Below, one piece after another: positions 6,194 to 8,176 of a stretch of 64,000 bases of DNA (positions within the stretch are counted from its first letter, which is position 1; each line of letters starts with the position of its first letter). Location of the stretch: positions 2,932-66,931 of the forward strand of contig JBCLBO010000006.1 in assembly GCA_038916785.1 (NCBI GenBank), in the 5' to 3' direction. The stretch comes from Candidatus Hydrogenedentales bacterium. GTDB lineage: Bacteria > Hydrogenedentota > Hydrogenedentia > Hydrogenedentales > GCA-2746185. The position numbers and the translations under genes are program-made. The notes under the pieces are model-generated. The model worked only from the letters and a program-made list of their open reading frames with translations. It was not told the DNA's origin and did no database searches.

Positions 6194-8176
6194 ATGATCT
6201 CGTCGTCACTCGTGGACGCACTGCGGCGCAAATCCCCTCGCGAGGCTGAGCGCCCGCGGTCCGTCTCACCAGGCCGGCGGGCAGCGGCCAGCGGGTTCGA
6301 GCGGTGCATGCACGAGCAGGGCCACAGAGGGAGGAGCCGGACCTTTCCGGATCGCGTCGTGCGTCGACCTGCGGTCGCCGTAGCGCTCGCCGCGATGCTG
6401 GCGATCGGATCGGACGGAACCGCCGTTGCAGAGCCACCGATCGAGTTGTCGGCGGTGGCCGGAGGCTCGGGTGGGTTTGCGATGAGCGGCCTCAACGTGG
6501 GCGACCAGCTGGGCTGGAGCGTGTCCGGGGCCGGGGACGTTAACGGCGATGGTCTTGCCGACGTGATCGTAGGCGCGCCCGAGGAGCGCGTAAACGGACG
6601 TGTGTTCTCGGGCCGGAGCTACGTCGTGTTCGGAAAGACCTCGACGACAAGAGTGAATTTGTTGGACGTGCGGGCAGGCGTGGGTGGTTTCGTGATCAAT
6701 GGTTCGACAACTCGTCTGTGGCCGTCGGGCTACAGTGTCTCGGATGCCGGGGACGTCAACGGCGATGGCCTGGGTGACCTGATCGTTGGAGCGTGGGGAG
6801 CAGATGTCGGGACTATCTCGCTCGCGGGAAAGAGCCTTGTAGTCTTCGGGAAGACCGATACGTCGGCAGTGGACCTTTGGCAGGTCTCCAACGGTGTTGG
6901 AGGCTTTGCGATTGCCGGGATTGAGTACAATGATCGATCAGGTATAAGCGTCTCCGGGGCGGGAGATGTGAATGGAGACGGGTTTGACGATCTGATAGTG
7001 GGCGCGTTTTTTGCAGACGCCTATTCAGGTGAGTGTTATGTCGTCTTTGGCAAAGCCTCTCACGAAACGGTTCTCCTGTCGGATGTGGCACTGGGGACAG
7101 GCGGATTCATCATTATTGCGGCCACGGTGGGAGCCGGGATTGGCTATAGTGTTTCTGGGGCAGGGGATGTTAACGGCGATGGTCTGGCGGACGCGATAGT
7201 CAACTCTTTCCCGTGGCTTGGGGTGGGAGGCCCACCGGTGACTGCATGCCAATCGGTGGTTTTTGGCAAGCGGGACACCGCGGTTGTCGAGCTTTCCGAG
7301 GTCGCGGCCGGCATAGGTGGATTTGTCATCAATCGCGAACCGGACAGCGGCTGCGGATTGAGTGCGTCGGATGCGGGTGACGTCAATGGTGACGGCCTGG
7401 ACGATGTGATCATCGGCAGCAGTGTGACCGATCGGGCGTATGTCGTGTATGGGCGGACCGGGACGGCTGCGGTGAATCTTGAGGATATTGTTCTCGGCGA
7501 GGGCGGATTCGCGATCGGAGGGCCTGAAGCCAACCAGGCCGGGTGGAGCGTGTCCGGCGCAGGAGATGTAAATCGCGACGGACTCGCCGACGTGATCGTG
7601 GGCGCGCCTTTCATGGGCGAGGGTGCTGTGTCTGATGAGGGGGCGGTACTGGCTGAAGGGCATAGTTACGTCGTGTATGGAAAGACTGGGAGCGAGGCAG
7701 TCAATCTGTCGAGCGTGTATATCGGCGAAGGCGGCTTTGCGATGATTGGGATTACCCCCGTGGATGCTTCGGGGTGGAGTGTATCCGGGGCGGGCGATGT
7801 GAACGGAGACGGATACGACGACGTCGTCATCGGGGCGTGGGCCGCAGGGCACGTTGCGGGAGAGAGCTATGTGGTGTTTAGTCCGGCGGCGCCGCCTCCG
7901 CCGGTGGACACCGATCAGGATCTGCTGGAAGACTCCGCTGAGACGAATACGGGGACCTTCGTGGATGAGACGGACACCGGCACGAATCCTCTGGATCCGG
8001 ATTCGGACGATGACGGGGTCATGGACGGCATCGAAGTCGACCTTGGAACGGATCCGAATGATCCCTTGGATTTCCCGGTCTTGCCCTTGAGGTTCCGCAT
8101 GGCTTTGGCCGTAGTGCTTGCGTGGGCCGCGATGGTCGCGCTGTTGCCCTCGACGCGAAAGATCGCGGCGAGGTAG
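6194..8176 (+). CDS. FG-GAP (integrin alpha-like beta-propeller) surface protein with acidic repeats and C-terminal TM anchor
   Basis: Seven S[VA]S[GD]AGDVN[GR]DG repeats; hydrophobic signal-like segment AVAVALAAMLAIG; C-terminal D-x-D-x-DG repeats, DFPVLPL, TM helix, basic tail. True start uncertain (6194 has an SD). Confidence 0.85.
   Translation: MISSSLVDALRRKSPREAERPRSVSPGRRAAASGFERCMHEQGHRGRSRTFPDRVVRRPAVAVALAAMLAIGSDGTAVAEPPIELSAVAGGSGGFAMSGLNVGDQLGWSVSGAGDVNGDGLADVIVGAPEERVNGRVFSGRSYVVFGKTSTTRVNLLDVRAGVGGFVINGSTTRLWPSGYSVSDAGDVNGDGLGDLIVGAWGADVGTISLAGKSLVVFGKTDTSAVDLWQVSNGVGGFAIAGIEYNDRSGISVSGAGDVNGDGFDDLIVGAFFADAYSGECYVVFGKASHETVLLSDVALGTGGFIIIAATVGAGIGYSVSGAGDVNGDGLADAIVNSFPWLGVGGPPVTACQSVVFGKRDTAVVELSEVAAGIGGFVINREPDSGCGLSASDAGDVNGDGLDDVIIGSSVTDRAYVVYGRTGTAAVNLEDIVLGEGGFAIGGPEANQAGWSVSGAGDVNRDGLADVIVGAPFMGEGAVSDEGAVLAEGHSYVVYGKTGSEAVNLSSVYIGEGGFAMIGITPVDASGWSVSGAGDVNGDGYDDVVIGAWAAGHVAGESYVVFSPAAPPPPVDTDQDLLEDSAETNTGTFVDETDTGTNPLDPDSDDDGVMDGIEVDLGTDPNDPLDFPVLPLRFRMALAVVLAWAAMVALLPSTRKIAAR

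What the first reader, a model, noticed from the sequence alone, without database searches (positions are those of the whole stretch)
7907..8176. Candidate undescribed C-terminal protein-sorting signal (acidic repeat + DFP[VI]LPL + TM + basic tail) shared by two unrelated surface proteins
Seen: the FG-GAP protein (7907-8176) and the HExxH protein (20533-20778) share nothing else but end in the same module. 29 of 37 aa are identical over GTxPxDPD[ST]D[DG]DGV[ML]DGIEVDLGTDPxDxLDFP[VI]LPL, many synonymous positions differ, and the TM helices and basic tails that follow diverge. Established: motif + TM + basic cluster is the layout of LPXTG, PEP-CTERM, IPTL-CTERM and GlyGly-CTERM signals, and DxDxDG repeats resemble Ca-binding thrombospondin type 3 repeats. 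Inference: a lineage-specific sorting or processing signal with a dedicated peptidase encoded elsewhere; I do not recognise this motif as a named family.
Basis: partly seen in the sequence, partly recalled or inferred. Interest (0 to 1): 0.72.

Follow-up and report, generated by a model that had tools for sequence, protein, structure and literature searches.

The report
Calcium-repeat stalk plus exosortase-type sorting tail
The tail shared by these two secreted proteins is real. It is a known calcium-binding repeat (TSP3) joined to a lineage-specific version of a known surface-protein sorting tag (IPTL-CTERM type), whose likely processing enzyme is encoded in closely related genomes.

Summary
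The two C-termini share 29 of 37 residues, 20 of them through different codons, and the proteins are otherwise unrelated. The module is not limited to these two genes. This genome has 6 copies, its congeners have 5-10 each, and about 100 protein clusters in a 1.8-billion-protein library carry it, almost always at the extreme C-terminus.

The "DFP[VI]LPL" motif has two parts:
- **D-F-P** is the cap of the last bacterial TSP3 repeat. In other proteins it also occurs internally, with no membrane helix after it.
- **LP-x4-[W/L/M]-[G/A]-L + helix + Arg/Lys tail** has the same Pro-to-Trp spacing as the IPTLxxWG (IPTL-CTERM) exosortase signal.

Distant members of the same module family pass NCBI's IPTL-CTERM model; the window's own tails do not. 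A close ortholog has lost exactly the TSP3 part and kept the LP tail. Homologous proteases elsewhere carry PEP-CTERM tails at the same place.

Congeners encode one exosortase-family enzyme. It is closest to XrtH but scores below that model's cut-off, and it has a conserved partner gene. It is present in 110 of 135 genomes of the phylum and co-distributes with the tails. It is missing from this 86%-complete assembly.

Verdict: a new variant of a known kind; cleavage is untested.

The parts
6194..8176 (+). FG-GAP repeat protein (660 aa from the first ATG; the likely true start is the ATG at 6308)
   Evidence: PF01839 E 3.8e-40, 7 stretches
6308..6430 (+). Probable signal peptide (MHEQGHRGRSRTFPDRVVRRPAVAVALAAMLAIGSDGTAVA)
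   Evidence: by inspection; no signal-peptide predictor was available
7907..8056 (+). Acidic TSP3-type repeat region of the FG-GAP protein (aa 572-621)
   Evidence: PF18884, 17.8-21.6 bits, below the 25-bit cut-off
8057..8077 (+). Cap of the last TSP3 repeat, N-D-P-L-D-F-P
   Evidence: the same cap occurs internally in other proteins with no helix after it
8078..8107 (+). Sorting signature V-LP-LRFR-MAL (Pro, four residues, then M-A-L)
   Evidence: (position statistics)
8099..8146 (+). Hydrophobic transmembrane segment MALAVVLAWAAMVALL
8147..8173 (+). Basic tail PSTRKIAAR
19471..20778 (+). Secreted HExxH metalloprotease (435 aa), weakly like the NF038122 family
   Evidence: NF038122, 31.7 bits, cut-off 80
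19471..19560 (+). Probable signal peptide MWTKSRSGRACVAIAGALAWAGAVSSGAQA
   Evidence: by inspection
20074..20088 (+). HEITH zinc-binding motif
20533..20655 (+). Two TSP3 repeats (aa 355-395)
   Evidence: PF18884, 36.3 bits on the protein and 44.6 bits on the fragment, cut-off 25
20656..20676 (+). TSP3 cap L-D-N-L-D-F-P
   Evidence: together with the repeats it lies within the 51 residues missing from ortholog P0152
20677..20706 (+). Sorting signature I-LP-LGVT-LGL
   Evidence: kept 100% identical in the deletion variant P0152
20698..20745 (+). Transmembrane segment LGLVAAMVAAGAVVLV
20746..20775 (+). Basic tail RVRRKASRAR

Best explanation
Each protein is exported by its N-terminal signal peptide and held at first in the cytoplasmic membrane by the C-terminal helix, with the Arg/Lys tail inside. 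The shared module has two functional parts.

1. One or two calcium-binding TSP3 repeats, ending in their own cap (GTDP-x-D-x-x-D-F-P), act as a spacer or stalk.
2. Directly after the cap comes an exosortase-type tripartite sorting signal of the IPTL-CTERM kind: [L/V]-P, four residues, [W/L/M]-[G/A]-L running into the helix, then a basic cluster.

An exosortase-family Cys/Arg/His membrane enzyme, closest to exosortase H, works with a conserved small membrane partner encoded next to it. It is inferred to recognise the signature, cut off the helix, and release or re-attach the mature protein to the cell envelope.

Shown here: the anatomy, the copy number, the terminal position, continuity with IPTL-CTERM, the dispensability of the TSP3 part, and the presence and co-distribution of the enzyme in the lineage.

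Inferred: that this enzyme acts on these tails, where it cuts, and what the product is attached to.
For: **A multi-copy, terminal paralogous tail**
- There are 6 copies in this genome, on FG-GAP, metalloprotease, trypsin-like, P-domain, SBBP and one fragment.
- Each congener has 5-10 copies, and 19 of 41 related genomes have at least one.
- A profile search of 1.84e9 proteins gave 154 hits at E<=1e-3. Of the top 150, 99 match the full module, and 95 of those end within 20 residues of the C-terminus.
- The bearers have signal peptides and very varied domains, including NCBI 'choice-of-anchor' O and J families.

**The motif is composite**
- [D/S]-[F/Y]-P after GTDPxDP also occurs internally, with no helix after it (for L018).
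- In distant hits the cap and a canonical signal are separate. P0075 reads '..GSFPAAPVPTVSEWGLLVLGLLLA..WRRQDA' and scores 31.1 bits on TIGR04174 (cut-off 20.5).

**Spacing matches IPTLxxWG**
- In 66 tails anchored on the last Pro, Trp peaks at +5 (16/66, against 0-4 at the other positions from -6 to +13). Gly is commonest at +6 and Leu at +7 (34/66). This is the I-P-T-L-x-x-W-G-L register.
- The window tails read LP-LGVT-LGL and LP-LRFR-MAL.

**Continuity with the curated model**
- The G019 copies C110, C147, C189 and C122 are hit both by the module profile and by TIGR04174. C110 scores 21.8 bits, above the cut-off.

**Natural dissections**
- P0152 is an 83%-identical ortholog that lacks 51 residues, the stretch holding the TSP3 repeats and the cap. 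Its 'LPLGVTLGL...RVRRKASRAR' is unchanged.
- Of two SBBP paralogs in this genome, one carries TSP3+SFPSLP and the other a direct 'VPAAGAAGLAAL..RKRKH' tail.

**Choice of anchor**
- Homologs of the same protease domain end in canonical VPEP PEP-CTERM tails. One is named as such by NCBI.

**The enzyme**
- G001 and G002 encode an exosortase/archaeosortase family protein. It scores 49 and 46.9 bits on TIGR04178 (cut-off 23). Its best specific match is XrtH, at 71.6 and 76.1 bits (cut-off 86).
- The Cys, Arg and His motifs are conserved.
- A partner membrane gene lies directly downstream in seven genomes of three families.
- In both congeners the enzyme gene lies about 2 kb from a module-bearing GSDH gene.
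- It is the only exosortase-family gene detected in the genus. No sortase was found in this genome, and no canonical exosortase or rhombosortase above cut-off was found in the genus.

**Co-distribution over 135 genomes of the phylum**
- 89 have enzyme and tails, 21 enzyme only, 10 tails only, 15 neither. Odds ratio 6.4, Fisher p 9e-5.
- All 10 'tails only' genomes are at most 93% complete and lie in 168 to 1150 contigs.
Against: - The window's own two tails lack the Trp and hit no IPTL-CTERM, PEP-CTERM or other CTERM model, even at E<=10.
- This genome's assembly (86% complete, 168 contigs) contains no exosortase-family gene. Its absence is attributed to a gap because the neighbouring recG ortholog is missing too. 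That is an inference.
- Profile-profile comparison of the tails with IPTL-like tails (84%) is no better than with ordinary C-terminal anchors of the same genome (86%). Overall similarity is therefore dominated by helix plus basic cluster, and only the Pro-Trp register is specific.
- The enzyme is nearly universal in the phylum, so the co-distribution test has little contrast. It is not corrected for phylogeny, and 21 genomes have the enzyme but no detected tail.
- The enzyme scores below the XrtH cut-off and carries a large insertion.
- The pairing of XrtH with IPTL-CTERM rests on database curation and my recollection of NCBI product names. I know of no experiment on it.
Confidence: 0.62

Rival explanations
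1. The tail is a plain type I membrane anchor. The helix plus the positive-inside tail tethers the exported domain to the cytoplasmic membrane on a TSP3 stalk. Nothing is cleaved, and the conserved D-F-P-x-L-P is a structural cap and helix-breaking junction.
For: - The D-F-P cap belongs to the TSP3 repeat and occurs without any helix.
- The tails resemble ordinary C-terminal anchors of the same genome as much as they resemble IPTL-like tails.
- This assembly has no sorting enzyme.
- The genome holds many other C-terminal helix-plus-basic ends with no motif.
Against: - The Pro-x4-Trp-Gly-Leu register is the same as in IPTLxxWG and is conserved across families.
- Distant members pass the curated sorting-domain model.
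- The same protease domain carries PEP-CTERM tails elsewhere.
- The lineage keeps an exosortase-family enzyme and partner whose presence tracks the tails.
- Secreted hydrolases such as trypsin-like and S8/P-domain enzymes are odd candidates for permanent inner-membrane tethering.
Confidence: 0.27
2. This is a new sorting system. DFPxLP would be recognised by a dedicated peptidase of another class (rhomboid, CPBP/myxosortase-like, or unknown), unrelated to exosortases.
For: - No curated CTERM model matches the window tails.
- Rhomboid-family genes are present in every genome of the order.
- F-P-x-L-P is invariant in 18 tails from four genomes of the genus.
Against: - The invariant D-F-P is explained by the TSP3 cap, and the deletion variant P0152 dispenses with it.
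- In the genus, rhombosortase matches are all below the cut-off.
- There is no invariant Cys as in myxosortase targets and no Gly-Gly motif.
- The family grades into IPTL-CTERM.
Confidence: 0.07

Closest known systems
IPTL-CTERM (IPTLxxWG) protein-sorting domain, NCBIfam TIGR04174
   Same: - Sits at the extreme C-terminus of signal-peptide proteins.
- Has the tripartite layout of signature, helix and Arg-rich cluster.
- Has [I/V/L]-P, then four residues, then W-G-L.
- Is multi-copy per genome on unrelated domains.
- Distant members of the module family pass the model.
- A predicted IPTL-CTERM domain is reported on the S-layer protein of Methylomirabilis lanthanidiphila (PMC8671808).
   Different: - The window tails and all genus copies fall below the model's cut-off.
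- Thr-Leu after the Pro is replaced by varied residues.
- Trp is replaced by Leu or Met in the two window copies.
- The signal is fused directly to a TSP3 cap, so a second invariant Pro lies three residues upstream.
Exosortase H (XrtH, TIGR04177) with its associated membrane protein (NF041730)
   Same: - The congeners' enzyme has XrtH as its best specific match and passes the exosortase/archaeosortase signature model.
- It keeps the Cys/Arg/His motifs.
- A small membrane protein gene always follows it.
   Different: - It scores 71.6-76.1 bits against a cut-off of 86.
- It is 319-337 aa against a 158-position model, with a soluble insertion of roughly 130 residues before the catalytic half.
- The partner matches NF041730 only at E 0.089.
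- It is a near-universal gene of the phylum and not a sporadic cassette.
PEP-CTERM / exosortase (XrtA) system, TIGR02595 / PF09721
   Same: - Same architecture and the same enzyme superfamily.
- The window's protease family carries VPEP tails in other lineages at the equivalent position.
   Different: - There is no Pro-Glu-Pro.
- The genus has no full-length EpsH-type exosortase.
- TIGR02595 does not match the tails.
Bacterial TSP3 repeat proteins with C-terminal sorting signals, e.g. Myxococcus MtsC (NF047638, TSP3 + MYXO-CTERM)
   Same: TSP3 repeats are placed just before a C-terminal sorting tail.
   Different: MYXO-CTERM has an invariant Cys and is processed by a CPBP-type myxosortase (PMC11980579, abstract). 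Here there is no Cys, and the candidate enzyme is an exosortase.

Membership tests
IPTL-CTERM sorting domain (TIGR04174) | Score at or above the curated cut-off (20.5 bits) | tested here: not met
   The window tails give no hit at E<=10. The genus genomes have no hit above the cut-off. Distant members of the same module family do pass: P0075 at 31.1 bits and G019:C110 at 21.8 bits.
IPTL-CTERM sorting domain (TIGR04174) | Extreme C-terminal position with signature, transmembrane helix and basic cluster | tested here: met
   the module ends 0-20 residues from the stop in 95 of 99 full matches.
IPTL-CTERM sorting domain (TIGR04174) | Signature I-P-T-L-x-x-W-G | tested here: inconclusive
   The register Pro, four residues, W-G-L is present across the family. 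The window copies have L-G-L and M-A-L instead of W-G-L, and no Thr-Leu.
IPTL-CTERM sorting domain (TIGR04174) | Many-to-one pairing with an exosortase H in the same genome | tested here: inconclusive
   An XrtH-like enzyme is found in congeners G001-G003 and in 110 of 135 genomes of the phylum. It is not in this 86%-complete assembly. Co-distribution gives an odds ratio of 6.4.
Exosortase H (TIGR04177), for the candidate enzyme in congeners | Score at or above the cut-off (86 bits) | tested here: not met
   76.1 bits (G002) and 71.6 bits (G001).
Exosortase/archaeosortase superfamily (TIGR04178 signature) | Signature model above the cut-off, with conserved Cys, Arg and His | tested here: met
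   46.9 and 49 bits against a cut-off of 23. The PDCGA, N-x-x-R-L and H-E/H-Y-V-W-Q motifs are conserved in six genomes.
PEP-CTERM (TIGR02595) | Pro-Glu-Pro signature and a model match | tested here: not met
   The tails have no PEP. The only match is to a G019 tail, at 9.4 bits and E 2.
LPXTG / sortase | LPXTG motif with a sortase in the genome | tested here: not met
   The genome has no PF04203 match. The TIGR01167 hits cover only helix plus tail and fall below the cut-off.
GlyGly-CTERM / rhombosortase (TIGR03902) | Rhombosortase above the cut-off and a Gly-Gly signature | tested here: not met
   All rhomboid matches in the genus are below 84 bits. There is no Gly-Gly motif.
MYXO-CTERM and other Cys-containing signals (myxosortase) | Invariant Cys in the signature | tested here: not met
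   No Cys is present in the signature of any of 18 genus tails.
Bacterial TSP3 repeat (PF18884) | Pfam gathering score of 25 bits | tested here: met
   The metalloprotease scores 36.3 bits and its C-terminal fragment 44.6 bits. The FG-GAP protein scores only 17.8-21.6 bits, but its repeat aligns residue for residue with the other.

The most novel reading that the evidence does not exclude
The phylum-wide XrtH-like enzyme, with its soluble insertion of about 130 residues and its obligate small membrane partner, is a distinct, unnamed exosortase subfamily. Its recognition signature would be LP-x4-[W/L]-[G/A]-L. In this genus the signal has fused with the calcium-binding TSP3 cap, so that the cap's D-F-P has become part of what the enzyme reads. 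Calcium occupancy of the last repeat could then gate processing.
Probability: 0.3. Interest if true: 0.45.

Novelty: new variant of a known kind. Interest (0 to 1): 0.33.

Why it matters
Exosortase-type sorting has barely been studied experimentally, and curated models miss divergent signals. As a result, surface and secreted proteomes of uncultured phyla are mis-annotated as plain membrane proteins.

This case supplies several usable things:
- a clean dissection of a composite motif into a spacer cap and a sorting signature;
- a natural deletion variant that separates the two parts;
- a candidate enzyme-partner pair conserved across a whole phylum, probably Hydrogenedentota;
- seed alignments for new models of the tail and the enzyme.

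It does not reveal a new kind of sorting system.

Tried and rejected
- **Named CTERM models.** NCBIfam and Pfam scans of the whole proteins and of the bare tails gave nothing above a cut-off. The sub-threshold hits covered only helix plus tail.
- **Profile-profile comparison.** I compared genus tails with IPTL-like tails and with control anchors. It did not discriminate (84% against 86%), so I dropped it as evidence.
- **The enzyme in this genome.** I searched for exosortase, sortase and the XrtH-like gene with PF09721, PF04203, TIGR04178 and tblastn using the G002 enzyme, its partner and recG. All were absent.
- **Rhombosortase.** Only generic rhomboids below the cut-off appear in the genus.
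- **Gene neighbourhood beyond the genus.** In G006, G019, G027 and G039 the enzyme and the module genes lie on different contigs. Linkage is seen only in G001 and G002, and those are not independent.
- **A possible 'midcut' substrate.** An internal hit on G000 C13 turned out, by its sequence, to look like a ResB-type multi-pass membrane protein.
- **The ORF after the partner gene in G001.** L058:5663-6484 has no family match.
- **Literature.** The held library has no paper on XrtH or IPTLxxWG beyond one S-layer annotation. The 2012 archaeosortase/exosortase paper could not be fetched under the id I tried.
- **Exact look-up of the window protease.** It is not on record in public contigs.
- **Scan of genome contigs.** It returned few loci, and the MAG labels disagree (Nitrospirales and Rhodothermaeota for one genus).
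Full report
**1. The observation**

The window holds two secreted-type proteins.
- ORF 6194-8176 has seven FG-GAP repeats (Pfam E 3.8e-40).
- ORF 19471-20778 has an HEITH motif and a weak match to the NF038122 metalloprotease family.

BLASTP finds one significant alignment between them, at the C-termini (E 5e-19). 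Twenty of those use different codons, and nucleotide identity is only 71/111. The similarity is therefore kept by selection on the protein and not by recent DNA exchange. The acidic repeats are Pfam's bacterial TSP3 repeat (PF18884). No named CTERM model of NCBIfam 20.0 reaches its cut-off on the whole proteins or on the bare tails.

**2. How common the module is**

I translated the whole assembly in six frames (3.4 Mb, 168 contigs, 86% complete). That gave six copies:
- the two in the window;
- a trypsin-like peptidase on C38;
- a P-domain (subtilisin-type) fragment on C72;
- an SBBP beta-propeller on C166;
- a fragment at the edge of C7.

A profile of the last 50 residues (alignment A1) finds 5-10 copies in each of four congeners. 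It finds at least one copy in 19 of 41 genomes of the order.

Against 1.84 billion representative proteins the same profile gives 154 hits at E<=1e-3. Of the best 150, 99 match the full module, and 95 of those end within 20 residues of the protein's end.

Bearers whose N-terminus is complete start with signal peptides. Their domains are very varied: BNR/sialidase-like, Reelin subrepeat, GSDH, beta-helix, CHRD and cadherin-like. They also include NCBI's 'choice-of-anchor' O and J families, which are defined by carrying alternative C-terminal anchors.

**3. The motif is composite**

Three lines of evidence split 'DFP[VI]LPL' into two parts.

*The D-F-P part also occurs internally.* In proteins found by the same profile, 'GTDP-x-D-P-x-[D/S]-[F/Y]-P' also stands in the middle of chains. 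There it is followed by other domains and no helix. Examples are P0018, P0021, P0057, P0065 and P0129, and in the same family of genomes L018 with 'GTDPLDAGDFPASVPLAPAAVIDPDFDG...'. D-F-P is thus the cap of the last TSP3 repeat.

*In more distant hits the cap and a recognisable sorting signature are separate.* Examples:
- 'LDFPLVS-VPALSGWAL...'
- 'SFPAL-VPALSEW...'
- 'GSFPAAP-VPTVSEWGLLVLGLLLA...WRRQDA'

The last, P0075, scores 31.1 bits on TIGR04174 IPTL-CTERM (cut-off 20.5).

*The residue spacing matches IPTLxxWG.* I anchored 66 tails on the last proline before the helix. Tryptophan peaks sharply at +5 (16 of 66, against 0-4 at the other positions from -6 to +13). Glycine is commonest at +6, and leucine at +7 (34 of 66). 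That is the register of I-P-T-L-x-x-W-G-L. Genus copies read LP-APGG-WAL, LP-VSAA-WLL, LP-ILRG-WAL and LP-AVTP-WGL. The two window copies read LP-LGVT-LGL and LP-LRFR-MAL.

In genome G019 four copies of the module are hit both by my module profile and by TIGR04174, one of them above the cut-off. The family therefore grades into a named sorting domain, although the window's own tails stay below it.

**4. Two natural experiments**

*A deletion variant.* A protein in the public collection, P0152, is 83% identical to the window's metalloprotease. It lacks 51 residues, the stretch that holds the TSP3 repeats and the cap, ending with D-F-P-I. Its 'LPLGVTLGLVAAMVAAGAVVLVRVRRKASRAR' is 100% unchanged.

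*Two paralogs with different tails.* In this genome two SBBP propeller paralogs differ in the same way. One ends in TSP3 + SFPSLP + helix. The other goes straight into 'PPPPVPAAGAAGLAALSALLLTAYALRKRKH'.

The TSP3 part is therefore an optional spacer, and the LP/VP tail is the constant element.

More distant homologs of the same protease domain end in canonical PEP-CTERM tails ('AVPEPSS...RKRRK') at the equivalent position. One is named a PEP-CTERM protein by NCBI. This is the 'choice of anchor' pattern expected of interchangeable exosortase signals.

**5. The candidate enzyme**

This assembly has no match to the exosortase, sortase or general exosortase/archaeosortase models.

Congeners G001, G002 and G003 each have exactly one exosortase-family gene.
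- It passes the superfamily signature model TIGR04178 (49 and 46.9 bits, cut-off 23).
- Its best specific match is exosortase H (71.6 and 76.1 bits, cut-off 86), followed by XrtX.
- It keeps the Cys, Arg and His motifs.
- It carries a soluble insertion of about 130 residues.
- It is followed directly by a conserved small membrane protein in seven genomes of three families. That partner faintly resembles the XrtH-associated protein (E 0.089).

In G001 and G002 the pair lies about 2 kb from a module-bearing GSDH gene, with recG between them. In this genome the enzyme, the partner and the recG ortholog are all missing. That fits an unassembled segment, but it remains an inference.

The genus has no full-length EpsH-type exosortase and no rhombosortase above the cut-off, and no sortase was found in this genome.

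The link between XrtH and IPTL-CTERM rests on NCBIfam's family names (one search lists 'midcut-by-XrtH', which several tails match weakly). It also rests on my recollection of the NCBI product name 'exosortase H, IPTLxxWG-CTERM-specific'. I could not read the primary paper.

**6. Co-distribution**

Across the 135 genomes held for the phylum, the enzyme is present in 110 (78 of 86 good-quality genomes). A tail-only profile (alignment A6) finds tails in 99.

| | Tails found | No tails found |
|---|---|---|
| Enzyme found | 89 | 21 |
| Enzyme not found | 10 | 15 |

The odds ratio is 6.4 and Fisher p is 9e-5.

All ten 'tails only' genomes are at most 93% complete and lie in 168 to 1150 contigs; this genome is one of them. 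The 'neither' class includes good assemblies: G034, G085, G096 and G126-G128.

The test is not corrected for phylogeny, and the enzyme is close to universal. I count it as moderate support.

**7. What weakens the case**

- The window's tails lack the Trp and match no curated sorting model.
- Profile-profile comparison of genus tails with IPTL-like tails is no better than with motif-less C-terminal anchors of the same genome. Only the proline-to-tryptophan register and the family continuity are specific.
- No cleavage has been shown for any XrtH-type system that I know of.
- The plain type I anchor reading therefore keeps about a quarter of the probability.

**8. Taxonomy and context**

NCBI labels of congeners disagree (Nitrospirales and Rhodothermaeota). 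The phylum assignment is probable but was not checked with marker genes.

**9. Verdict**

It is not a new class. It is a TSP3 stalk with its cap, fused to a divergent IPTL-CTERM-type exosortase signal. A plausible XrtH-like enzyme and partner are encoded in the lineage. I rate it a new variant of a known kind. Its value is for annotation and as a handle on an unstudied enzyme subfamily.

Noticed in passing
genome contigs C3 (ORFs ending near 65562 and 556), C8, C23, C26, C41, C136; not in the window: At least eight proteins end in a CFI-box-CTERM domain ('CFIATAAYG...DAYYR.SPP.A..I' + helix + Arg). NF041770 scored 80.2 bits (cut-off 40) on the one tested. At least one (C3) is preceded by a TSP3 repeat and a poly-Gly run. 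This is a second, separate multi-copy C-terminal tail family in the same genome.
   Followed up: partly
L058:3986-4999 (G001) and L054:4810-5769 (G002); not in the window: This exosortase-family enzyme is closest to XrtH but scores below its cut-off. It has a soluble insertion of about 130 residues and an always-adjacent membrane partner of about 200 aa. It is present in 110 of 135 genomes of the phylum and looks like an unnamed exosortase subfamily.
   Followed up: partly
P0152 (public protein, 384 aa) versus window 19471-20778: A close ortholog (83% identity) has a clean 51-residue deletion that removes the stretch with both TSP3 repeats and the D-F-P-I cap. The membrane tail is identical.
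   Followed up: yes
genome C166:1-1041 and C126 (ORF ending near 5482-5562): Two SBBP beta-propeller paralogs carry alternative tails. One has TSP3 + SFPSLP + helix. The other has a direct 'VPAAGAAGLAAL...RKRKH' tail.
   Followed up: partly
window 6194-6307: The first ATG of the FG-GAP ORF gives a 38-residue Arg-rich leader with no hydrophobic core. The ATG at 6308 gives a normal signal peptide and is the more likely start.
   Followed up: no
P0021, P0050, P0057, P0065, P0128 (public proteins): In one group of proteins the TSP3 cap ('DPLDPLDYP.MP') is followed by long runs of 'GNATLLQ..' heptad-like repeats. Many also end in a helix plus a Lys-rich tail. Their origin and function are unknown.
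   Followed up: no
G039:C15:1-1607 (L057): Two XrtH-like genes lie in tandem in one genome of the order.
   Followed up: no
window 2383-6033, 8438-9244, 17165-18175, 18438-19193 (-), 20836-21915: By sequence, the neighbours look like housekeeping genes: an RND efflux pump, triose-phosphate isomerase, an HD-domain protein, deoxyribose-phosphate aldolase and an ApbE-like flavin transferase. None is a membrane peptidase linked to the two tail-bearing genes.
   Followed up: no
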